Of a DNA stretch of 7,184 nucleotides, positions 1-7,184 are shown piece by piece. Source of the DNA: a virus (lineage: Duplodnaviria; Heunggongvirae; Uroviricota; Caudoviricetes). Location of the stretch: positions 1 through 7,184 of IMG/VR virus record IMGVR_UViG_2617270940_000007. One strand, given 5' to 3'. The first letter of the stretch is position 1, and each line of letters begins with the position of its first letter. Both the position numbers and the translations under genes were made by a program. The notes beneath the pieces were generated by a model that saw only the letters and a list, made by a program, of their open reading frames with translations, did no database searches and had not been told where the DNA came from.

Positions 1-65
1 AACCAATATCACTTAAATAAGTGATAGTCTTAATACTAGTTTTTAGACTAGTCATTGGAGAGCAG

Positions 66-431
66 ATGATTGATGTCTTAGGACCGGAGAAACGCAGACG
101 GCGTACTACACAGGAAAAGATCGCTATTGTTCAGCAGAGTTTTGAACCGGGAATGACGGTCTCCCTTGTTGCCCGGCAACACGGTGTGGCAGCCAGCCAG
201 TTATTTCTCTGGCGCAAGCAATACCAGGAGGGAAGTCTTACTGCTGTGGCCGCAGGAGAGCAGGTCGTTCCTGCCTCTGAACTTGCTGCTGCCATGAAGC
301 AGATTAAAGAACTCCAGCGCCTGCTCGGCAAAAAAACGATGGAAAATGAACTCCTTAAAGAAGCCGTTGAATACGGGCGTGCAAAAAAGTGGATAGCGCA
401 CGCGCCCTTATTGCCCGGGGATGGGGAGTAA
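66..431 (+). CDS. insC: IS2 transposase OrfA (InsC), 121 aa, helix-turn-helix DNA-binding subunit
   Basis: ORF-track protein [40 protein letters not shown]... matches IS2 InsC as I recall it; chosen start is the ATG at 66 rather than the ORF-track upstream extension at 21. Confidence 0.9.
383..389 (+). other. Programmed -1 ribosomal frameshift motif A_AAA_AAG of IS2 (orfA to orfB)
   Basis: Heptamer aaaaaag at 383-389 in the insC frame (A-K-K-W) exactly where the insD frame opens; A6G slippery sites are the established mechanism in IS3-family elements. Confidence 0.75.
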
Positions 432-1294
432 GCTTAGTCAGCCGTTGTCTCCGGGTGTCGCGTGCGCAGTTGCACGTAATTCTCAGACGAACCGATGACT
501 GGAAAGATGGTCGCCGCAGCCGTCACTCAGATGATACGGATGTGCTTCTCCGTATACACCATGTTATCGGAGAGCTGCCCACGTATGGTTATCGTCGGGT
601 ATGGGCGCTGCTTCGCAGACAGGCCGAACTTGATGGTATGCCTGCGATCAATGCCAAACGTGTTTACCGGATCATGCGCCAGAATGCGCTGTTGCTTGAG
701 CGAAAACCCGCTGTACCGCCATCGAAACGGGCACATACTGGCAAAGTGGCCGTGAAAGAAAGCAATCAACGATGGTGCTCTGACGGGTTCGAGTTCCGCT
801 GTGATAACGGAGAAAAACTGCGAGTCACGTTCGCGCTGGACTGCTGTGACCGTGAGGCACTGCACTGGGCAGTCACTACGGGCGGCTTCGACAGTGAAAC
901 AGTACAGGACGTAATGCTGGGAGCGGTGGAACGCCGCTTCGGCAACGAGCTTCCGGCGTCTCCAGTAGAGTGGCTGACGGATAATGGTTCATGCTACCGG
1001 GCTAATGAAACACGGCAGTTTGCCCGGATGTTGGGGCTTGAACCGAAGAACACGGCGGTGCGGAGTCCGGAGAGTAACGGCATAGCAGAGAGCTTCGTGA
1101 AAACGATAAAGCGTGACTACATCAGTATCATGCCTAAACCAGACGGGTTAACGGCAGCAAAGAACCTTGCAGAGGCGTTCGAGCATTATAACGAATGGCA
1201 TCCGCATAGTGCACTGGGTTATCGCTCGCCACGGGAATATCTGCGGCAGCAGGCCAGTAATGGGTTAAGTGATAACAGGTGTCTGGAAATATAG
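389..1294 (+). CDS. insD: IS2 transposase OrfB (InsD), DDE catalytic domain; expressed as InsCD fusion by -1 frameshift
   Basis: 301-aa ORF in the -1 frame relative to insC, overlapping its 3' end; GTG start at 389 lies inside the slippery heptamer; stop TAG at 1292-1294 inside the right inverted repeat. Confidence 0.9.
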
Positions 1295-1305
1295 GGGCAA
1301 ATCCA
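1265..1305. repeat. IS2 right terminal inverted repeat (IRR)
   Basis: Terminal ~41 bp ending ...tggaaatataggggcaaatcca; the matching left repeat lies outside the window, so pairing cannot be verified here. Confidence 0.6.
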
Positions 1306-1679
1306 CCTACTGCCATTACCCACACTTTCATCATTTCACGTAAACGAAGAGAAAAGCGCACCTGCCATTACTCCATACACGGAGAAGAACAATCACCAAA
1401 ACGACGGGAACAACCCAGACGAAAACACAGAGAAGAACCACCTCAAGAAGAACGAAACCACATACGCCGGTAGAGAGTACAAACCACCCATTTCACCCAC
1501 AGGAATAGTCGCCGTATTGAGCGTTATCAGAGAGAAGGTTTATGCCCACATAAGAGAGAAAATTCGAGGGAGGTATAAGTGGGAAGGGGAAGAGGGGTAT
1601 CGCTACTTTTTCCGTATAAATTCAAGCCATAGTTTTCGTCCCCCGTAACGTCCCTATCCACCCCTTCGGTCAGCCTTCG

Positions 1680-1830
1680 GGCCATCCAGGGAAAAGGCCA
1701 TGTCCCTTTTCAGGAACGGGAGCGTCGCCGCAGGGAAAAGGCTGGAGGTTTTCAGGGAAACGGTGGGAATCCCGCTGTACGAACCGGGAAAAGGCTGGCT
1801 GCCGGTCGGGAAACGGGTACATCCCGGTAC
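1680..1830. repeat. GC-rich array of ~6 degenerate direct repeats (core GGGAAA(A/C)GG, ~22-bp period); iteron-like or protein-binding array
   Basis: Units cagggaaaaggc (~1687), caggaacggg (~1711), cagggaaaaggc (~1731), cagggaaacgg (~1753), ccgggaaaaggc (~1784), cgggaaacggg (~1807); no credible ORF across it. Confidence 0.5.
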
Positions 1831-2134
1831 AGAGTGAGGGACGACTGCGGGAGCGGTGCGGGAAATCTTCGGGAGTGCGCCTTACTCTTCACTCGCCTGA
1901 AAATCGCGGGGGAGTGTCATTCCCTCTCGTGCAGCTACTGGACTCCAGTCTGCCAGACCATCATCGGGTCTCAAGCGATTTCAGTAGGTTTTCGGGGAGA
2001 AGAAAATTCTGCCCACCAGCCCCGCGGCGCGCGTAGAGCAGAATATCGTAAATACTGGCTCCCGTGTCGTTCCCGGATATTCACTGCCCAGCCTGGCTTT
2101 CCCGACATAAAATCCTTTTTCGCCTTTGTCTTAT

Positions 2135-2170
2135 TGCGATAATAACACCAATAAGTAAACAACATATTTA
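2135..2170 (+). promoter_or_regulatory. Promoter module A: extended -10 (TGcGATAAT) followed by degenerate AAACAA-N-ATTTA operator-like element
   Basis: ttgcgataataacaccaataagtaaacaacatattta aligns with modules D (4651-4686) and E (5135-5170); lies ~30 bp upstream of RBS gagga and ATG 2202. Confidence 0.4.
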
Positions 2171-2201
2171 GACGTTATAGAAACGAAGTGAGGATGAAGA
2201 G

Positions 2202-2418
2202 ATGATTAAGATGCCTGTGACGGTTGAGGTGTGGGGCGTGGATTCCCTGGCTGAGTGTCTGGATGCAGTGGGGCCGGAGTTGTACCGCAAGTTGTGGTCG
2301 TTCGTCCCGCAGAAGGGGAATCGCCCAAAGGGAAGGATATCTGGCATCTGCTGAGTGAAGATGAAAAGCGGGAGCTGGTGGACGCGGTACACAGCGAGTT
2401 CCCGGAGGACGAAGATTA
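2202..2418 (+). pseudogene. Small ORF (~72 aa if repaired) split by an apparent frameshift near 2331-2336; hypothetical protein
   Basis: RBS gagga 8 nt before ATG 2202; frame 0 gives MIKMPVTVEVWGVDSLAECLDAVGPELYRKLWSFVPQKGNRPKG then stops at 2352-2354; the -1 frame continues KDIWHLLSEDEKRELVDAVHSEFPEDED to TAA ~2416-2418. Both halves look protein-like. Below the ORF-track length cutoff. Confidence 0.3.
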
Positions 2419-2510
2419 AGAGTGAGGTCACCAGCACGGTGGCTTTTGTCGCTATTAACCTCCGGGGCAGCGCAGCACCGTAACGATATACTCTGTGGCC
2501 GTTTTCTTAC

Positions 2511-2548
2511 TGGTATTGTTTACGCAATTCAGAAAACAACATGTTTAA
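2511..2548 (+). promoter_or_regulatory. Promoter module B: extended -10 (TGgTATTGT) plus AAACA-aca-TGTTT palindrome in the 5' UTR
   Basis: ctggtattgtttacgcaattcagaaaacaacatgtttaagga; near-identical in layout to module C (2992-3037); immediately precedes RBS aagga and ATG 2559. Confidence 0.5.
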
Positions 2549-2558
2549 GGATTGCTTT

Positions 2559-2888
2559 ATGTTTGCAAATATCGACATCAACCAAATCAAGAAAATGACT
2601 CAAAAAGAGTTTGACCAGTTTTATGAGTTAGAAGGTTGGTCTTCCACGCTGATCAATTCGCGCTGGGTGCTTGAGCTGATGACTCGTGATGATGCTCCTG
2701 CTTTGATTATTTGCGACATGGGTGAAGATGCTGACTTTATGGATATGAGCGAATTTTGTGTGGACACATACAACCGCAGCCAGAAGTACTACTTCACATG
2801 CGATAGCGAGAATGACGTGATTTCTAAGCTCTATCTTCACCTTGTCCAGCATTGGGACGTGCAGGAATTCCTTGAGTTATTCGCGTAA
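2559..2888 (+). CDS. Hypothetical small acidic protein, 109 aa (cassette gene 1)
   Basis: ORF-track 2541..2888; start moved to ATG 2559 because 2541 lies inside the operator palindrome and 2559 has an aagga RBS at suitable spacing; followed by a hairpin at 2898-2920. No recognisable family. Confidence 0.6.
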   Translation: MFANIDINQIKKMTQKEFDQFYELEGWSSTLINSRWVLELMTRDDAPALIICDMGEDADFMDMSEFCVDTYNRSQKYYFTCDSENDVISKLYLHLVQHWDVQEFLELFA

Positions 2889-2897
2889 GCCCAACCA

Positions 2898-2925
2898 AAG
2901 CCAGCACCGCCTGCTGGCTTAACTT
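2898..2925 (+). terminator. Hairpin (aagccagc-accgcct-gctggctt) with weak U-tract; putative terminator of gene 1
   Basis: 8-bp inverted repeat 10 nt after the stop codon; downstream tract ttaacttctc is only moderately T-rich. Confidence 0.4.
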
Positions 2926-2991
2926 CTCTGTAGCCGTAGGGAAGAACCACCTTTAGATAATTCATGTGCCTGAGCAATATGCTTTGTAGCC

Positions 2992-3037
2992 GTTTTTACA
3001 CTGGTATTATTTACGCCATTGAGAAAACAATTTGTTT
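2992..3037 (+). promoter_or_regulatory. Promoter module C: extended -10 (TGgTATTAT) plus AAACAA-t-TTGTTT palindrome in the 5' UTR
   Basis: gccgtttttacactggtattatttacgccattgagaaaacaatttgtttacgg; homologous to module B over ~50 bp; precedes RBS ggag and ATG 3049. Confidence 0.5.
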
Positions 3038-3048
3038 ACGGAGTAGTG

Positions 3049-3360
3049 ATGAATACTTCATTGGTGCTGGGTCTTGCTGAAGGCCAGGAGAGAAAAGAAA
3101 AACCAACCTTAATGGGGCATCTCACATTGCTGGATATCGTAGCGAATGGGACTTCTATCCGTCTGTTTCGTGAAAAAGCCATTACCTTCGACGCGGGCAA
3201 TTTTACGCGCTATGTGATGGTAGTTCGTCGCCGGCGTGGAAGAGGGTGGATGTCGGTCCAGAAAATGTGGCCAGAGGACCAGCTTGAACTGGCGCTGATG
3301 GAAGCTAACCGTGTCGCCCAACAAGAGATCCAACGAGCGTCTGTTCAGGCGGTAGCTTAA
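3049..3360 (+). CDS. Hypothetical protein, 103 aa (cassette gene 2)
   Basis: ORF-track 3019..3360 begins at a TTG inside the operator; ATG 3049 preceded by ggag is the likelier start; Rho-independent terminator follows. No recognisable family. Confidence 0.55.
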   Translation: MNTSLVLGLAEGQERKEKPTLMGHLTLLDIVANGTSIRLFREKAITFDAGNFTRYVMVVRRRRGRGWMSVQKMWPEDQLELALMEANRVAQQEIQRASVQAVA

Positions 3361-3394
3361 ACATGTGCAAGCAGTAGTTAGTCGAATGTACGAC

Positions 3395-3424
3395 AGCCCC
3401 GCCAATCCTTCGGGGCTTTTTTGT
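3395..3424 (+). terminator. Rho-independent terminator (agccccg - loop - cggggct + TTTTTT)
   Basis: GC-rich 7-bp stem with ccttcgg-type loop followed directly by a six-T run, 35 nt after the gene 2 stop. Confidence 0.7.
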
Positions 3425-3449
3425 ATTGTAAGTACTTACTTATGATAAT
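3421..3449 (+). promoter_or_regulatory. Sigma70-like promoter (TTGTAT - 17 bp - GATAAT) with a perfect 12-bp palindrome GTAAGTACTTAC in the spacer
   Basis: -35 TTGTAT at 3421-3426, -10 GATAAT at 3444-3449, spacer 17 bp; palindrome at 3428-3439 overlaps the spacer (operator-like); AT-rich leader then strong RBS aggag 6 nt before ATG 3482. Confidence 0.5.
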
Positions 3450-3481
3450 AAAATTAAAAATTAAACAATAAGGAGAGTGAA

Positions 3482-3877
3482 ATGACCGTTAAACGCGAAA
3501 ATCTGACCCTGGATATGTATTATGCATCAGAGACGGAAAATGGAGACAAAGTTGCAAAAATTACAATTGTGCTACGCGATAATGCCTCCGGCGAAGAAGT
3601 TCACACCAGTACCTTAACTCGCACCGGCGAGGCGACAAAGGGGAAATATTCGGTGCGTTACCAAAGCATCAGTAATGCTTCTGACCCTTTACTGATAAAA
3701 CTGGAAACTCATTTCCGTGGCGCGGATCAGACGTTGTTTGAAAATTTGATGAAAAAGGTCGATACGGTTTATACATCGAGTTTAAATACCAATAGTACCT
3801 GGATGGGACAACACGGTCTGCGAATAATCTCCGGCGAAAAGATCGACACCATTGTCCCTGAAAGCGTATTCGCTTAA
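3482..3877 (+). CDS. Hypothetical protein, 131 aa (cassette gene 3)
   Basis: Strong RBS aggag at 3471-3475, 6 nt before the ATG; own promoter and own terminator; no recognisable family. Confidence 0.65.
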   Translation: MTVKRENLTLDMYYASETENGDKVAKITIVLRDNASGEEVHTSTLTRTGEATKGKYSVRYQSISNASDPLLIKLETHFRGADQTLFENLMKKVDTVYTSSLNTNSTWMGQHGLRIISGEKIDTIVPESVFA

Positions 3878-3886
3878 TCCTCTTTG

Positions 3887-3916
3887 AATGGCGCGTAAAC
3901 CGCGCCATTTTCTTAT
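3887..3916 (+). terminator. Rho-independent terminator (aatggcgcg-taaac-cgcgccatt + T-rich tract)
   Basis: Perfect 9-bp inverted repeat 10 nt after the gene 3 stop, followed by ttttcttatg. Confidence 0.65.
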
Positions 3917-3921
3917 GTCCG

Positions 3922-3936
3922 ATAACAATTTGTTTT
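3922..3936 (+). promoter_or_regulatory. Operator-like palindrome AACAA-t-TTGTT (copy F of the conserved motif) upstream of gene 4
   Basis: gataacaatttgttttctg matches the core palindrome of modules B-E; the -10 context differs (GATAAC abuts the palindrome), so the promoter assignment is less certain. Confidence 0.35.
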
Positions 3937-3994
3937 CTGCCTTATCTGATTTGTGAAAATGATTTCACTGAAGCAACTTAATAAGGAAACCATC

Positions 3995-4369
3995 ATGGGA
4001 CTTGATATATATATCGAGACGCAGCCTAAAAACGATCTGAATAACGAGGCATCCAGAAAGCAGGTTGCTTACTTCCGTAAGTTCAATGCGCTCGTTGGGT
4101 GGATGGAGCGCAACGTAGGTGAAGTCGAAAATTGTGAGCTTTTAGAATTAACGATGAATGACATTTGTTTTCTGAAGGCTCATTTGATGCACATAAACGA
4201 AAGTAATTGCGAAGAGTACTTGCCTACCCAGGAAGGTTCTTTCTTCGGCAGTCAGGAGTACGATGAAGGTTACTGGCATGATGTGGGGGAGTTGAAAGAG
4301 ATTGTGGAAGATCTGATTAAGAACCACGACTTTCACAATAATAGACTGACCTTCTGCGCCTGGTGGTAA
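3995..4369 (+). CDS. Hypothetical acidic protein, 124 aa (cassette gene 4)
   Basis: ORF-track 3953..4369 starts at GTG with no RBS; ATG 3995 has aagga 7 nt upstream; stop TAA overlaps the start of the next small ORF (taaatATG). Confidence 0.55.
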   Translation: MGLDIYIETQPKNDLNNEASRKQVAYFRKFNALVGWMERNVGEVENCELLELTMNDICFLKAHLMHINESNCEEYLPTQEGSFFGSQEYDEGYWHDVGELKEIVEDLIKNHDFHNNRLTFCAWW

Positions 4370-4371
4370 AT

Positions 4372-4515
4372 ATGGGCGATTTCAAGAAACGCCTGAAGGA
4401 GAGAGCCGAGATGGTCAGAAAGCGAAACGCCTCTTCTGTCATAAGATACGCAAGGCAGTTTAGTCGCAACAACAAATCAGTTGAGGAAAAGATCCTTAGC
4501 GTAATCGGGCGATAA
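4372..4515 (+). CDS. Small basic ORF, 47 aa (or 34 aa from internal ATG 4411 with strong RBS aaggagag); possible coupled partner of gene 4
   Basis: MGDFKKRLKERAEMVRKRNASSVIRYARQFSRNNKSVEEKILSVIGR; start overlaps the upstream stop; internal ATG at 4411 has a strong SD at 7-nt spacing; Lys/Arg-rich; followed by hairpin 4521-4544. Below ORF-track cutoff. Confidence 0.3.
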   Translation: MGDFKKRLKERAEMVRKRNASSVIRYARQFSRNNKSVEEKILSVIGR

Positions 4516-4520
4516 TTATT

Positions 4521-4544
4521 AAGGCCACCAGCATTGGTGGTCTT
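4521..4544. repeat. Hairpin repeat copy 1 (aaggccacca-gcat-tggtggtctt) carrying a Chi octamer on the minus strand
   Basis: 10-bp arms with one G:T position, 4-nt loop; flanked by ttaaatgac; near-identical element at 4992-5015 with inverted loop; ccaccagc (complement of Chi GCTGGTGG) at 4525-4532. Confidence 0.6.
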
Positions 4545-4650
4545 AAATGACTTTTAATAACCGAAGGTTAGTTTGAAACCTGGCTATCAACTTCCAGAAC
4601 CTTTCTTGTGTATTCAGCCTGTATTAACTTCTTTTATGTCTTATCTACAC

Positions 4651-4686
4651 TGCGATAATTACACCAACAAGAAAACAATATGTTTA
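4651..4686 (+). promoter_or_regulatory. Promoter module D: extended -10 (TGcGATAAT) plus AAACA-ata-TGTTT palindrome in the 5' UTR
   Basis: tgcgataattacaccaacaagaaaacaatatgtttacgc; homologous to modules A and E; followed by RBS gagga (4693-4697) and ATG 4705. Confidence 0.5.
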
Positions 4687-4704
4687 CGCAGTGAGGATAT
4701 GCTC

Positions 4705-4986
4705 ATGACTGATTTCACCATTACCCCTAAAGCACAAAATGTATTCCTTGAATCATGGCTGGACTTGCCGGAAACAGAACAGCAAGAAATGGATCATGTG
4801 GAATATGACGAGCAGGTAAGCACGCGATTCTTCCACTTTGAGGGCTGCGTTTACGACATTGCCAACTTCATGCGAGATGACCGCTTCCCTGAATGGCACG
4901 CAAGCTATCCACTAAACGCCTTCGCCATGCTGATGATCCGTGTGGATGATTCAGGGGATACCATCGACATCGGTCTGCTCCACTAA
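4705..4986 (+). CDS. Hypothetical small acidic protein, 93 aa (cassette gene 5)
   Basis: ORF-track 4573..4986 would run through the promoter/operator; ATG 4705 lies 7 nt after gagga (ATG 4699 is too close to the SD). Protein MTDFTITPKAQNVFLESWLDLPETEQQEMDHVEYDEQ... is Asp/Glu-rich. No recognisable family. Confidence 0.6.
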   Translation: MTDFTITPKAQNVFLESWLDLPETEQQEMDHVEYDEQVSTRFFHFEGCVYDIANFMRDDRFPEWHASYPLNAFAMLMIRVDDSGDTIDIGLLH

Positions 4987-4991
4987 AGAGT

Positions 4992-5015
4992 AAGGCCACC
5001 AATGCTGGTGGCCTT
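4992..5015. repeat. Hairpin repeat copy 2 (aaggccacca-atgc-tggtggcctt) carrying a Chi octamer on the plus strand
   Basis: Perfect 10-bp arms; loop atgc is the reverse complement of the copy-1 loop gcat; GCTGGTGG at 5004-5011; followed by ttaaatgac as in copy 1. Confidence 0.6.
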
Positions 5016-5116
5016 AAATGACCATCCTGTTTTCTGCAGGCTAAAAACACCAACCTCTTACCTCCAGGCAACCGACAAACCCACCTGTTCCCGTCCGGCT
5101 ACCGCAACTTTCCACT

Positions 5117-5170
5117 TTGACGCCTTATTCGTACAACGATAATTAACACAAACAAGAAAACAATTTGTTA
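5117..5170 (+). promoter_or_regulatory. Promoter module E: TTGACG -35-like, cGATAAT -10, then AAACAA-t-TTGTTA palindrome in the 5' UTR
   Basis: ttgacgccttattcgtacaacgataattaacacaaacaagaaaacaatttgttatttacg; homologous to modules A and D; RBS aagga (5179-5183) 7 nt before ATG 5191. Confidence 0.5.
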
Positions 5171-5190
5171 TTTACGATAAGGAATTAATC

Positions 5191-5673
5191 ATGAATTTTA
5201 TCGCTACTGTAAACGCACCCGCACATGGCAATATCGCTGTAACGTTCTCTGACATTGAAAAACGAGTACTTGGTGCATGGCGCGACAATGAGACGGTAGA
5301 ACTGTCAGCACAAGAAAAATGCATTATTGCACGCGACATCATTGGCAATCGTCGTTACTCGCGGGTATTTGAGAAAGCATATGTGGTAAATTCTGGATTC
5401 GGAACGTTCGTCTTTCCGGTGCGCTCCGGGCGATTCTGCCAGTCCAAGCTGATTGAGTTCGCTACGCAGATTTCTGTCTGGATTAAAACTCAATCGTCGT
5501 TCAAATTTTCCGACGATGAAGCAGTATCGCAGGGGATGCGGATCGCCAACAATGCAATAAAATGCAAAAACATTACGTATGCCGCTGGCGTTGACACATG
5601 GAAACTGTTTTGCGCTAACTTTATGCTGAATGTATACGCAAGCAACCGCATCCACATCCTTGATGGCGTGTAA
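5191..5673 (+). CDS. Hypothetical protein, 160 aa (cassette gene 6)
   Basis: Good RBS, own promoter module, and a hairpin terminator immediately downstream; no recognisable family. Confidence 0.65.
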   Translation: MNFIATVNAPAHGNIAVTFSDIEKRVLGAWRDNETVELSAQEKCIIARDIIGNRRYSRVFEKAYVVNSGFGTFVFPVRSGRFCQSKLIEFATQISVWIKTQSSFKFSDDEAVSQGMRIANNAIKCKNITYAAGVDTWKLFCANFMLNVYASNRIHILDGV

Positions 5674-5676
5674 CTG

Positions 5677-5706
5677 AGAAGAGGGCCAGAAACGGCCCTT
5701 TCTCTA
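5677..5706 (+). terminator. Rho-independent terminator (agggcc-agaaac-ggccct + tttctct)
   Basis: GC-rich stem 4 nt after the stop codon, followed by a T-rich tract. Confidence 0.6.
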
Positions 5707-5716
5707 TAGCCACCAG

Positions 5717-5900
5717 CTGCCGCAGGGAAATTTTCAGAAACGGCGAGGAACGCATTCATGAGCCGAAGGGAAACGACCATGAAATTTTCTGGAAACGGCG
5801 GGGGGCGCCTTTATGTAGAAAACTGAGCGGGAGAAACCCGGAATCGCGCCAGAAATTGCGTAGCGGCGCTGGGGCAGCGCTGGTGGGGTTTCAGCCCCTG
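5717..5900. repeat. Second GC-rich repeat block (GGGAAA / GAAACGG units), homologous to the 1680-1830 array
   Basis: gccgcagggaaa...ttttcagaaacggcg matches gccgcagggaaaaggctggaggttttcagggaaacggtg in array 1, as if with a ~10-bp deletion; shared gggccatccag motif (1677-1687 and ~5892-5902); Chi octamers at both edges (5710-5717 minus strand, 5879-5886 plus strand). Confidence 0.45.
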
Positions 5901-6088
5901 GGCCATCCAGATAGCTTTCGCTATGTGATTATGTGAATCCGTGGGTAAATCACTGTAAGCGCGTACACGTTGCCCAACGTGGCAATCATATGCGAGCGGA
6001 TACAAAACAACACAAAGAGCCGATCCGCGCCGACAAATAAATGCGGATCACATAGCAAGACTAAAAGCCAATGATTAACCATACTCTA

Positions 6089-6216: not shown

Positions 6217-6246
6217 CAATAAAAAACGCGCCAATGATGGCGCGTT
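6217..6246 (-). terminator. Hairpin (aacgcgcc-aatgat-ggcgcgtt) followed by a T-run on the minus strand; second of two tandem minus-strand terminators
   Basis: Perfect 8-bp stem; on the minus strand the stem is followed directly by TTTTTT (plus-strand aaaaaa at 6221-6226). Confidence 0.5.
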
Positions 6247-6265
6247 ATGGTGGGAGTATTGGAAA

Positions 6266-6290
6266 CGAAAAAAGCGCCCATAGTGGGCGC
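6266..6290 (-). terminator. Rho-independent terminator of the 76-aa minus-strand gene (gcgccca-tag-tgggcgc + TTTTTT)
   Basis: Perfect 7-bp stem 6274-6290, followed on the minus strand by six T; lies 7 nt past the stop codon (6297-6299) of the 6297..6527 gene; the same 17-bp palindrome recurs at 6547-6563. Confidence 0.7.
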
Positions 6291-6296
6291 TCGATT

Positions 6297-6546: not shown

Positions 6547-6563
6547 AGCGCCCATAGTGGGCG
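6547..6563. repeat. Second copy of the 17-bp palindrome gcgcccatagtgggcgc, between the two minus-strand genes
   Basis: Identical to 6274-6290; sits between the stop of the upstream minus-strand fragment (6578) and the SD/ATG (6527) of the 76-aa gene. Confidence 0.6.
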
Positions 6564-6577
6564 CTATATCCATCTAA

Positions 6578-6837
6578 TTACGCTTTGAAAGCATCAGCCA
6601 GATAGTTATAAAAATCATTTTTAACGAAGCGATATTGCTGTGATCCGTTTTTCGCTGCACCCATTCCTTTGATTTTTTCGACCAGTCCCAGACGTTCGCA
6701 AAGATTGATAAGCTGGTTGGCTTGAGTGTATCCTGCGTCTAATTTTATTTCGTTGGCTTTTTTCGCTTCATTCATTAAATCGAAAACAGCGCCATTGGTG
6801 AACGTGTCGATCTCGTCGTTAATCATATCGATTAATG
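6578..6837 (-). pseudogene. 3' fragment of a gene truncated at its 5' end by IS1 insertion; hypothetical protein, tentatively phage antirepressor-like C-terminal region
   Basis: Minus-strand frame stays open from the ORF-track Met (6826) up to the IS1 boundary (6837) with no stop, so the ORF runs into the IS; the antirepressor resemblance is an impression from memory only. Confidence 0.45.
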
Positions 6838-6892
6838 GGTGATGCTGCCAACTTACTGATTTAGTGTATGATGGTGTTTTTGAGGTGCTCCA

Positions 6893-7168
6893 GTGGCTTC
6901 TGTTTCTATCAGCTGTCCCTCCTGTTCAGCTACTGACGGGGTGGTGCGTAACGGCAAAAGCACTGCCGGACATCAGCGCTATCTCTGCTCTCATTGCCGT
7001 AAAACATGGCAACTACAGTTCACTTACACCGCCTCTCAGCCCGGTACGCACCAGAAAATCATTGATATGGCCATGAATGGCGTTGGATGCCGGGCAACTG
7101 CCCGCATTATGGGCGTTGGCCTCAACACGATTTTACGTCACTTAAAAAACTCAGGCCGCAGTCGGTAA
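6893..7168 (+). CDS. insA: IS1 InsA (transposition repressor / N-terminal part of the InsAB' transposase), 91 aa
   Basis: [91 protein letters not shown]; GTG start at 6893; zinc-finger-like CxxC...CxxC motif. Confidence 0.92.
7144..7150 (+). other. IS1 A6C -1 frameshift motif (insA to insB', gives InsAB' transposase)
   Basis: aaaaaac near the 3' end of insA, the established IS1 frameshift position; the insB' frame continues beyond the window. Confidence 0.7.
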
Positions 7169-7184
7169 CCTCGCGCATACAACC

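What the first reader, a model, noticed from the sequence alone, without database searches (positions are those of the whole stretch)
1680..1830. Iteron-like array with ~22-bp periodicity next to IS2
Six GGGAAA(A/C)GG-containing units recur at intervals of about 20-31 bp (starts near 1687, 1711, 1731, 1753, 1784, 1807) in a GC-rich stretch with no credible ORF. Two-helical-turn spacing of a short direct repeat is what replication-initiator iterons, centromere (par) sites and some recombinase arm sites look like. A DnaA-box-like ctatccacc sits just upstream (~1644-1652). Several units can also form short hairpins (gaaaagg...ccttttc).
Basis: seen in the sequence. Interest (0 to 1): 0.6.

Follow-up and report, generated by a model that had tools for sequence, protein, structure and literature searches.

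The report
Conserved 22-bp repeat array, phage-plasmid
The repeat is real: it is an undescribed, strongly conserved array of evenly spaced 9-bp boxes, with a twin 4 kb downstream, in SSU5/pHCM2-type phage-plasmids of enteric bacteria. It most likely serves as a docking site on DNA for an unknown protein and is not the plasmid's known replication origin.

Summary
The array is real. GGGAAA(A/C)GG occurs five times exactly and once in degenerate form at 1689-1816, all on the + strand, against 0.03 expected. Spacing is 22 bp with one 31-bp step.

The window is a piece of an SSU5/pHCM2-like phage-plasmid. IS2 is an incidental insertion into a ~1.6 kb gene-free region conserved in over 700 plasmids and phages. 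A homologous second array lies at ~5687-5798. In the 103-kb SSU5 genome the exact box occurs only in these two arrays, which flank a conserved block of small orphan genes.

- **Selection:** boxes are more conserved than spacers, and copy number varies (2-6) by indels of 11-53 nt, mostly about one or two repeat units and mostly not multiples of three, so the region is non-coding.
- **Not RNA:** there is no Rfam hit and no consensus structure on either strand. The region is almost untranscribed in published lysogen RNA-seq.
- **Not the plasmid origin:** the Rep_3 initiator sits 31 kb away, flanked by different 21-bp iterons.
the "DnaA box" and the hairpins are not conserved.

Best reading: paired binding-site arrays on DNA for an unidentified protein. 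The role is probably a centromere or a second origin, but this is unresolved.

The parts
1687..1816 (+). Array 1: six 9-bp boxes, GGGAAA(A/C)GG, starting at 1689, 1711 (degenerate cAGGAACGG), 1733, 1755, 1786 and 1808. Spacings are 22, 22, 22, 31 and 22 bp.
   Evidence: The boxes at 1755 and 1786 are invariant in every lineage that has them.
1681..1689 (+). GCCATCCAG box abutting the first unit. The same 9-mer recurs next to array 2.
   Evidence: four copies in the whole SSU5 genome, two of them at the arrays. Conserved.
5687..5798 (+). Array 2, homologous to array 1. Boxes: CAGAAACGG at 5687 (in the loop of the p160 terminator hairpin 5683-5698), GGGAAAttt at 5725, CAGAAACGG at 5735, gAGGAACGc at 5745, GGGAAACGa at 5768 and tGGAAACGG at 5790.
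   Evidence: In SSU5 the two exact boxes here lie 22 bp apart. One lineage (L011) lacks 18 nt, about one unit.
5902..5910 (+). Second GCCATCCAG box, downstream of array 2.
1306..2201 (.). Right-hand 900 bp of a ~1.6 kb conserved, unannotated region that is nearly untranscribed. It is interrupted here by IS2.
   Evidence: gene-free gaps of 1555-1643 bp in IS-free relatives. (RNA-seq).
1306..1560 (+). A/C-rich, G-poor half of the non-coding region. It carries CCATTAC...ACACGGAGAAGAAC repeats.
   Evidence: This is the most negative GC skew of the whole SSU5 genome (-0.35 over 600 bp).
1579..1639 (+). Conserved TATAAG (1574-1579) followed by a G-rich/T-rich hairpin with inner stem 1586-1612. This is the only consensus structure found near the array.
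   Evidence: The pairs vary between G-U, G-C and A-U, which fits an RNA or + strand hairpin. It lies outside the array.
2202..5673 (+). Block of small orphan genes enclosed by the two arrays. Each gene has its own promoter-like module.
3049..3360 (+). p103, a 103-aa protein kept between the arrays in 50 of 51 loci. It is a weak candidate for the protein that binds the arrays.
5191..5673 (+). p160, a 160-aa protein found in all 51 loci. Array 2 starts in its terminator.
5051..5103 (+). Two copies of a second repeat family, C(C/A)ACCT-N8-9-C(A/C)GGC(T/A)ACC, with a 30-bp period. Its only other copies lie in the 1.6 kb non-coding region.
1..1305 (+). IS2 (insC/insD), an incidental insertion that is not part of the feature.
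   Evidence: IS-free relatives.

Best explanation
The array is a cis-acting site on DNA. It is a row of non-palindromic 9-bp boxes set two helical turns apart, with one step of about three turns. Copies of a sequence-specific protein can therefore sit head-to-tail along one face of the duplex and bind cooperatively.

The same protein would also occupy the homologous second array 3.9 kb downstream. The two arrays, in the same orientation, can then be bridged by looping or pairing. Together they delimit the conserved block of small genes.

The binding protein is encoded by the phage-plasmid and has not been identified. The 103-aa protein p103, encoded between the arrays, is a weak candidate.

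The arrays belong to the DNA-maintenance machinery of SSU5-type phage-plasmids. They are distinct from the Rep_3 plasmid origin. My split among roles is about 0.2 each for a partition centromere for the ParA system, which has no assigned site, and for a second phage-mode origin or cis-replication region. I give 0.1-0.15 to a boundary or looping element that regulates the enclosed genes.

- **Shown:** the array, its twin, their conservation pattern, the absence of RNA structure, and the distinct Rep iterons.
- **Inferred:** protein binding, bridging of the arrays, and the role.
For: - **Enrichment and phasing:** 5 exact boxes against 0.03 expected, with an autocorrelation peak at lag 22 (z = 4.9). 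In 17 lineage representatives the spacings between neighbouring boxes are nearly all 21-24, 31 or 42-44 bp.
- **Genome-wide specificity:** in 103 kb of SSU5 the exact box occurs 6 times. All are on the + strand and all lie in the two arrays.
- **Selection on the boxes:** mean pairwise identity is 0.82 for box columns and 0.63 for spacer columns (Mann-Whitney p = 2e-6). Two boxes are invariant.
- **Copy-number variation:** lineages carry 2-6 units and differ by indels of 11-53 nt, most of them about one or two repeat units. No lineage had zero units.
- **Breadth:** the region is present in 718 PLSDB plasmids and 12 phages of Escherichia, Salmonella, Klebsiella, Enterobacter, Citrobacter and Cronobacter. 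It is never annotated.
- **Not RNA:** there is no Rfam match. There is no consensus structure on either strand, and the single-sequence MFE equals that of shuffles. In LF82/Cyrano RNA-seq the ORF laid over the array (CYRAN_104) stays at log2(FPKM+5) 2.6-4.7 in 10 samples, while its neighbours reach 7.8-9.2 (PMC9928086 S1 Table).
- **Quiet position of array 2:** it lies beyond an intrinsic terminator in a convergent intergenic region.
- **Not the plasmid origin:** SSU5_069 has Rep3_N and Rep3_C domains and is flanked by many copies of CTC(T/A)CTACAGTGG(T/A)TA at a 21-bp period.
- **Unassigned centromere:** ParA has no repeat array nearby.
Against: - **No binding protein identified.**
  - p103 has no sequence-level support.
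  - p160 matches nothing.
- **No origin hallmarks.** No AT-rich unwinding element, conserved DnaA box or IHF site adjoins the array.
- **Distance from rep and par genes.** The rep genes lie 31 kb away and the par genes 60 kb away. That is unusual for iterons or type Ib centromeres.
- **Limits of the RNA-seq.** It covers lysogens and infected macrophages only, at ORF resolution. A transcript made only during lytic growth is not excluded.
- **No co-variation signal.** The candidate partners ParA, the FljA-like protein, p216, the helicase, p103 and p160 are all present in nearly every lineage. Co-occurrence therefore cannot pick the partner.
Confidence: 0.55

Rival explanations
1. Partition centromere. 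The arrays are the binding sites of the centromere-binding partner of the small ParA ATPase (SSU5_033). Paired or oligomerised complexes on them are segregated by ParA. This is a specific case of the best explanation.
For: - ParA is conserved at 84-92% identity in all SSU5-like phages.
- No repeat array lies in or beside the par locus.
- The genome-wide repeat inventory leaves only this 90-96 kb region and the Rep iterons as phased arrays.
- The element is low copy, about 5.5 per cell in LF82 (PMC9928086).
- The array consists of direct repeats with variable copy number, in two clusters, in a transcriptionally quiet site.
- Centromeres dispersed away from the par operon are known in the phage-plasmid N15 (my own knowledge).
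Against: - The arrays lie 60 kb from parA, whereas type Ib centromeres normally adjoin the operon.
- The putative partner SSU5_034 (96 aa) has no recognisable domain.
- No co-variation test was possible.
Confidence: 0.2
2. Second, phage-mode origin or cis-replication region. The arrays are iterons for a lytic-cycle initiator, arranged like P4 ori/crr or the origin and control iterons of P1 and F that flank a gene block. This is a specific case of the best explanation.
For: - Direct repeats of 22 bp are the classical iteron geometry (R6K, pPS10; my own knowledge).
- There are two clusters 3.9 kb apart in the same orientation.
- SSU5 encodes its own replication proteins: a DnaB-like helicase, primase, DNA polymerase, SSB, ligase and RNase H. 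No lytic origin is assigned.
- The array abuts the most strand-asymmetric sequence of the genome.
- The region is silent in lysogens.
Against: - No AT-rich unwinding element, DnaA box or IHF site is conserved nearby.
- No recognisable initiator gene is adjacent.
- The replication genes are 40-55 kb away.
- Genome-wide GC skew shows no switch here that could be attributed to replication.
Confidence: 0.2
3. Regulatory boundary or looping element. A repressor or insulator protein binds both arrays and loops out the enclosed block of small genes, much as lambda CI bridges OL and OR. It could instead block read-through from the variable cargo genes.
For: - The arrays bracket a block of co-oriented genes that share a promoter/operator-like module.
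- The block is induced together in macrophages while the array region stays silent.
- The left border of the non-coding region coincides with the end of the variable cargo region.
Against: - The boxes are direct, non-palindromic repeats.
- Array 1 ends more than 300 bp upstream of the nearest promoter-like module, and array 2 lies after a terminator.
- A different, dispersed element (AAGAAAACAAnnTGTTTA) already looks like the operator of these promoters.
Confidence: 0.12
4. RNA-level element. The boxes act in a transcript, either as a sponge or platform for an RNA-binding protein (CsrA through GGA motifs, or the FljA-like protein encoded nearby) or as part of a structured non-coding RNA.
For: - All boxes lie on one strand.
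- Many boxes contain GGA.
- An FljA homologue (PF03614, E = 3e-70) is encoded about 1.7 kb beyond array 2. FljA acts on fliC mRNA (PMC2652032).
- The E. coli fliC leader contains GGGTGGAAACCC.
- A hairpin rich in G-U pairs lies just upstream of the array.
Against: - There is no Rfam hit at E <= 1.
- There is no consensus structure in the array on either strand, and the MFE equals that of shuffles.
- GGA is lost in several conserved units (CAGAAACGG, GTGAAAGGG), while GAAANGG is kept.
- RNA-seq shows a near-floor signal over the array while flanking genes are expressed.
- Array 2 lies beyond a terminator.
- No sigma-70-like promoter is found in the region.
Confidence: 0.08
5. Iterons of the plasmid replication initiator, meaning the origin or its incompatibility and control array.
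For: The array has 22-bp direct repeats in non-coding DNA on a plasmid typed IncFIB.
Against: - The Rep_3 initiator (SSU5_069) is 31 kb away and is flanked on both sides by its own 21-bp iterons, whose sequence is unrelated (CTACAGTGG core).
- The GGGAAAMGG box is absent from that region.
- Lineages that PLSDB types as IncFIB and as rep_cluster_488 carry the same array.
- The DnaA-like box is not conserved.
Confidence: 0.03
6. Functionless remnant of tandem duplication.
For: The units clearly arose by duplication, and copy number varies.
Against: - The boxes are more conserved than the spacers, and two boxes are invariant across genera.
- No lineage has lost the array.
- An ancient second copy is retained.
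Confidence: 0.03

Closest known systems
Iterons of theta-replicating plasmids (R6K gamma origin with seven 22-bp repeats; P1 oriR/incA and F oriS/incC with arrays on both sides of the rep gene)
   Same: Non-palindromic direct repeats about two helical turns apart, all in one orientation. Copy number is variable, there are two clusters a few kb apart, and the DNA is non-coding.
   Different: No Rep gene lies between or beside the arrays. The element's own Rep_3 initiator has different iterons elsewhere. No AT-rich unwinding element or DnaA box is present.
Satellite phage P4 ori and crr (two clusters of initiator-binding octamers about 4.5 kb apart, both needed in cis)
   Same: Two arrays of the same short box lie about 4 kb apart on a phage-related plasmid, in direct orientation.
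   Different: P4 encodes a recognisable primase-helicase initiator, and nothing of that kind is found here. The comparison rests on my recollection of P4 and was not tested.
Plasmid centromeres made of direct repeats (R1 parC, pB171 parC1/parC2, and the dispersed sop centromeres of phage-plasmid N15)
   Same: Phased direct repeats lie in two clusters in a quiet intergenic position. The ParA system of the element lacks an assigned site.
   Different: The arrays are 60 kb from the par genes. The box, its 22-bp spacing and the putative partner resemble no characterised centromere.
Lambda OL/OR operator triplets bridged by CI
   Same: Three or more sites lie about two turns apart at two places a few kb apart, enclosing a gene block.
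   Different: Lambda operators are near-palindromes that overlap promoters. These boxes are direct repeats that overlap no promoter-like site.

Membership tests
Rep_3-type plasmid origin iterons | The repeats are the binding sites of the element's Rep initiator and normally adjoin the rep gene. | tested here: not met
   The Rep_3 protein SSU5_069 is at 59.4-60.5 kb and is flanked by 21-bp CTACAGTGG-type iterons. The GGGAAAMGG arrays are at 91.5 and 95.1 kb.
Rep_3-type plasmid origin iterons | Direct repeats of about 17-22 bp in helical phase. | tested here: met
   Spacings are 22, 22, 22, 31 and 22 bp, with an autocorrelation peak at lag 22 (z = 4.9).
Rep_3-type plasmid origin iterons | An adjacent AT-rich unwinding element with DnaA and/or IHF sites. 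| tested here: not met
   There is no DnaA box at one mismatch or fewer and no IHF consensus within 300 bp of the array. ctatccacc is not conserved.
Autonomous origin or incompatibility determinant (functional definition) | The cloned fragment replicates or exerts incompatibility. | not testable with these tools
   This needs a wet-lab assay.
Partition centromere (type I/II) | A repeat array bound by the centromere-binding protein of a ParA or ParM system on the same replicon. | tested here: inconclusive
   ParA is present and conserved and has no array of its own. Binding cannot be tested, and the site is 60 kb away.
Recombinase arm-type sites | The sites flank a core crossover site, with a tyrosine recombinase encoded nearby. 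| tested here: not met
Described structured RNA (any Rfam family, including CsrB/RsmY-type sponges) | A match to a covariance model. | tested here: not met
   A scan of the whole window at E <= 1 gave four sub-threshold hits, none within 1300-2200.
Structured non-coding RNA (undescribed) | A conserved secondary structure with compensatory changes, plus a transcript. | tested here: not met
   RNAalifold energy is 0.0 on both strands for the array. There are no pairs inside the array in the 276-column alignment. RNA-seq signal is near the floor.
Protein-coding gene | An ORF whose frame is conserved among relatives. | tested here: not met
   Only 45-50 aa ORFs are present. Indels of 11, 22, 31, 32, 44 and 53 nt occur among lineages. 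No similarity to neighbouring proteins passes E = 1e-3 in six-frame comparison, the best being p152 at E = 0.004 and 23% identity.

The most novel reading that the evidence does not exclude
The two GGGAAAMGG arrays are the missing cis-acting maintenance site of the whole SSU5/pHCM2 phage-plasmid family, either its centromere or its phage-mode origin. They are read by a new family of small beta-sheet DNA-binding proteins (p103) found only in these elements. The silent 1.6 kb region, with its four repeat families, is a multi-function hub for replication, partition and insulation.
Probability: 0.15. Interest if true: 0.6.

Novelty: new member of a known kind. Interest (0 to 1): 0.45.

Why it matters
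SSU5/pHCM2-type phage-plasmids are common in clinical E. coli, Salmonella (including Typhi), Klebsiella and Enterobacter. They carry resistance and virulence cargo.

Apart from the Rep_3 origin, their cis-acting sites are not described in any paper I could find. This applies to the centromere, the lytic origin and the packaging site.

A conserved, genome-unique pair of binding-site arrays in a silent 1.6 kb region is an obvious candidate for one of these sites. It gives a concrete target for:
- stability and incompatibility tests;
- curing strategies;
- finding the partner protein among orphan genes.

It is also a caution for annotation, because several records place spurious ORFs over the region.

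Tried and rejected
- **Rfam:** a scan of the whole window at E <= 1 found nothing in the region.
- **RNA structure:**
  - RNAalifold on 16 lineage representatives found none in the array on either strand.
  - Apparent UNCG-type loops at 1665-1683 gave only 2-bp stems, and I did not pursue them.
- **CsrA sponge:** GGA is not the conserved part of the box.
- **DnaA box:** not conserved.
- **RepA iterons:** a different sequence at a different place.
- **Repeats at the par locus:** none found.
- **Decayed paralogue of the p160 gene module in the non-coding region:** only the repeat modules match and there is no protein similarity.
- **Same array in other elements:** a pattern scan of IMG/VR found SSU5-like contigs plus unrelated chance or tandem-repeat hits. 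A short-query BLAST against plasmids hit only plasmids of about 100-230 kb in the host genera of SSU5-type elements.
- **Function of the neighbouring small proteins:** no Pfam or NCBIfam domains, and PHROGs of unknown function.
- **Structures:**
  - The p103 model gives only weak, mixed matches, with no profile hit to AP2 or integrase domains.
- **Wider homologue searches for p103 and p160:** both stayed inside SSU5-like elements, so no co-variation test was possible.
- **Truncated "mini-plasmid" record:** it turned out to be an incomplete linear contig.
- **Literature searches on SSU5, pHCM2, iterons and packaging:** no description of this region was found.
- **Correction to my notebook:** the step before the last two boxes of array 2 is 33 bp in the window, not 31 bp as I first noted. 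Counting the degenerate box at 5745 gives steps of 10, 10, 23 and 22 bp.

Full report
**What the window is.**
- Positions 1-1305 are IS2 (NCBIfam IS2 TnpA and TnpB).
- Positions ~6830-7184 are the start of IS1.
- Everything between belongs to an SSU5/pHCM2-type phage-plasmid.
  - Window 1300-2200 matches only plasmids in E. coli genomes (239 genomes, none chromosomal).
  - It matches 718 PLSDB plasmids of about 100-120 kb, nearly all 'non-mobilizable', from Klebsiella, Escherichia, Enterobacter, Salmonella, Citrobacter and Cronobacter.
  - It also matches 12 phage records, including Salmonella phage SSU5, Escherichia phages Cyrano and PhiR41_1, and Klebsiella phage pJN2-26.
- In IS-free relatives the sequence lies in a gene-free gap of 1555-1643 bp. 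The gap separates a variable cargo region from a conserved run of small genes.
- The closest relative (99.9% identity) has no IS2 there, so the IS2 neighbourhood is incidental.

- GGGAAA[AC]GG starts at 1689, 1733, 1755, 1786 and 1808. A degenerate cAGGAACGG starts at 1711. All are on the + strand.
- Dinucleotide shuffles give 0.03 copies on average and never more than 2 in 5000. Autocorrelation peaks at lag 22 (z = 4.9).
- The region is non-coding. ORFs are 45-50 aa at most, and lineages differ by indels of 11, 22, 31, 32, 44 and 53 nt.

**There is a second array.**
- A relaxed scan showed a second cluster at 5687-5798. Its boxes are CAGAAACGG at 5687, GGGAAAttt at 5725, CAGAAACGG at 5735, gAGGAACGc at 5745, GGGAAACGa at 5768 and tGGAAACGG at 5790.
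- In the complete 103-kb SSU5 genome the exact box occurs six times. All are on the + strand: four in array 1 and two, 22 bp apart, in array 2. It occurs nowhere else.
- The arrays share flanking strings (ccgCAGGGAAA..TTTTCAG.AAACGG and the 9-mer GCCATCCAG), so they are old duplicates.
- Array 2 begins in the loop of the terminator of the 160-aa gene. It sits in a convergent intergenic region.
- Together the arrays bracket the block 2202-5673. Within it, p160 is present in all 51 loci that have full flanks, and p103 in 50 of them.

**The conservation pattern points to function.**
- I collected about 60 further copies by pattern scans of GTDB genomes and IMG/VR.
- Across 17 lineage representatives the array has 2-6 units. 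Neighbouring boxes are nearly always 21-24, 31 or 42-44 bp apart.
- Box columns are more conserved than spacer columns (0.82 against 0.63 mean pairwise identity, p = 2e-6). The boxes at 1755 and 1786 never vary.
- The conserved core is (C/T)(A/C)GGGAAA(A/C)GG, often followed by CTGG.
- No lineage lacks the array.

**It acts as DNA, not RNA.**
- Rfam finds nothing in the region.
- RNAalifold on 16 representatives predicts no pair inside the array. On the array alone the consensus energy is 0.0 on both strands, and the single-sequence MFE equals that of shuffles.
- The only consensus structure is a G-rich/T-rich hairpin upstream, at 1586-1612.
- Published RNA-seq of E. coli LF82, which carries the phage-plasmid Cyrano, reports values for two ORFs drawn over the non-coding region (PMC9928086 S1 Table).

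| ORF | Position relative to the array | log2(FPKM+5), 10 samples |
|---|---|---|
| CYRAN_102 | upstream gene | 5.6-9.2 |
| CYRAN_103 | over the non-coding region | 2.3-4.3 |
| CYRAN_104 | over the array | 2.6-4.7 |
| CYRAN_105 | downstream gene | up to 7.8 |

- These data cover lysogens and infected macrophages, not lytic growth, and they are at ORF resolution.

**It is not the plasmid origin.**
- SSU5_069 carries Rep3_N and Rep3_C domains. It is flanked on both sides by many copies of a 21-bp iteron, CTC(T/A)CTACAGTGG(T/A)TA. This locus is 31 kb from array 1.
- The DnaA-like ctatccacc is not within one mismatch of the consensus. It is altered or deleted in relatives.
- No IHF consensus and no AT-rich block adjoins the array.

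**What it could be.**
- A repeat inventory of SSU5 shows phased multi-copy arrays only at the Rep locus and in the 90.4-96 kb region.
- The small ParA ATPase (SSU5_033) is conserved at 84-92% in all SSU5-like phages. It has no repeats nearby, so the centromere is unassigned.
- The lytic origin is also unassigned, although the phage encodes its own helicase, primase, polymerase, SSB, ligase and RNase H.
- The geometry suits either role: non-palindromic boxes in one orientation, two turns apart, in two clusters. It suits a classical operator less well.
- I therefore read the arrays as paired protein-binding sites of the maintenance machinery and split the role about evenly between centromere and phage-mode origin. 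A boundary or looping role for the enclosed genes is third.

**The search for the binder failed.**
- The small proteins around the arrays have no Pfam or NCBIfam domains, and their PHROGs have unknown function.
- The p103 and p160 families occur only in SSU5-like elements.
- A full-length FljA homologue is encoded about 1.7 kb beyond array 2 in IS-free relatives. FljA acts on fliC mRNA (PMC2652032).
- The resemblance between the box and the fliC leader is only 6-7 nt.

**Comparison with known systems.**
- The closest analogues are plasmid iterons (R6K; P1 oriR/incA), P4 ori/crr, direct-repeat centromeres (R1, pB171, and the dispersed sites of N15) and lambda OL/OR.
- The array shares their geometry.
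- It fails the membership tests I could run for Rep iterons: wrong place, wrong sequence, and no unwinding element.
- It cannot be tested here for centromere or origin function.
- I found no description of this region in the literature I could search.

**Verdict.** This is a real, conserved and previously undescribed cis element of a medically common phage-plasmid family. It belongs to a familiar general kind, but its partner and role are unknown. It is moderately interesting and directly testable.

Noticed in passing
window ~2128-2170, 2505-2545, 2990-3035, 4640-4690, 5125-5170; SSU5 30445, 56844, 82464, 88366, 90529, 92165-94521: Each small gene is preceded by the same module. It has an extended -10-like TGnGATAAT/TGgTATTAT followed by ..CCAA(C/T)AAGAAAACAAnnTGTTTA just before the ribosome-binding site. 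AAG(A/T)AAACA occurs 11 times in SSU5, always on the + strand; nine copies carry the AAGAAAACAA core in a promoter-like context, including one upstream of parA, and two lie inside genes. It looks like the operator or leader of a genome-wide regulon, comparable to the scattered C1 operators of P1. The FljA-like regulator is one possible partner.
   Followed up: partly
window 1306-1560 (L001 11300-12200): The left part of the non-coding region is A/C-rich and G-poor on the + strand. It has the most negative GC skew of the whole SSU5 genome (-0.35 over 600 bp). It carries CCATTAC..ACACGGAGAAGAAC repeats. As a + strand transcript it would resemble a long Rho-utilisation site. This fits the abrupt loss of RNA-seq signal after the upstream gene.
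   Followed up: partly
window 5051-5103; L001 11712-11802: A second repeat family, C(C/A)ACCT-N8-9-C(A/C)GGC(T/A)ACC, has a period of 30-31 bp. It occurs only in the 1.6 kb non-coding region (three copies) and just upstream of the p160 promoter (two copies). The non-coding region therefore shares two repeat modules with the p160 gene surroundings.
   Followed up: partly
window 2013, 2374, 4525, 5004, 5710, 5879: Six Chi sequences (GCTGGTGG), three on each strand, lie within 3.9 kb. SSU5 has 31 in 103 kb. Two sit in terminator hairpins, one lies directly before array 2 and one after it. Several are conserved in relatives.
   Followed up: partly
L001 18218-18742 (- strand); beyond the IS1 end of the window: A full-length homologue of FljA, the repressor of phase-1 flagellin translation (PF03614, E = 3e-70), is present in all 51 SSU5-like loci examined. 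A phage-plasmid copy could silence host flagellin or regulate the element's own mRNAs.
   Followed up: partly
window 6578-6830 and 6830-7184: IS1 truncates the 216-aa conserved gene (phrog_1513). The phage-plasmid segment in this window is bounded by IS2 on the left and IS1 on the right. It may be a captured fragment rather than an intact phage-plasmid. Locus L147 (IMG/VR UViG 2529293139_000001, a 35.7 kb contig, 7184 bases held) is probably the source of the window.
   Followed up: no
window 2202-2419: The first small gene (72 aa in relatives such as L002) is frameshifted here into two overlapping ORFs (2202-2354 and 2255-2419). The same gene is marked as frameshifted in the 99.9% identical plasmid pYUXYEH3934-1.
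   Followed up: partly
window 5966-5981, 6274-6290, 6548-6564: The convergent intergenic region to the right of array 2 holds a conserved palindrome, CACGTTGcccAACGTG. It also holds two copies of the hairpin GCGCCCATAGTGGGCGC plus AACGCGCCAATGATGGCGCGTT. These score weakly as terminators or sRNA-like elements (Rfam sub-threshold hits at 6217-6291).
   Followed up: no
window 1574-1612: An invariant TATAAG is followed by a hairpin rich in G-U pairs (GGGGAAGAGGGG..TACTTTTTCC). Its pairs switch between G-U, G-C and A-U among lineages. No -35 element is conserved, and no transcript is seen in lysogen RNA-seq.
   Followed up: partly
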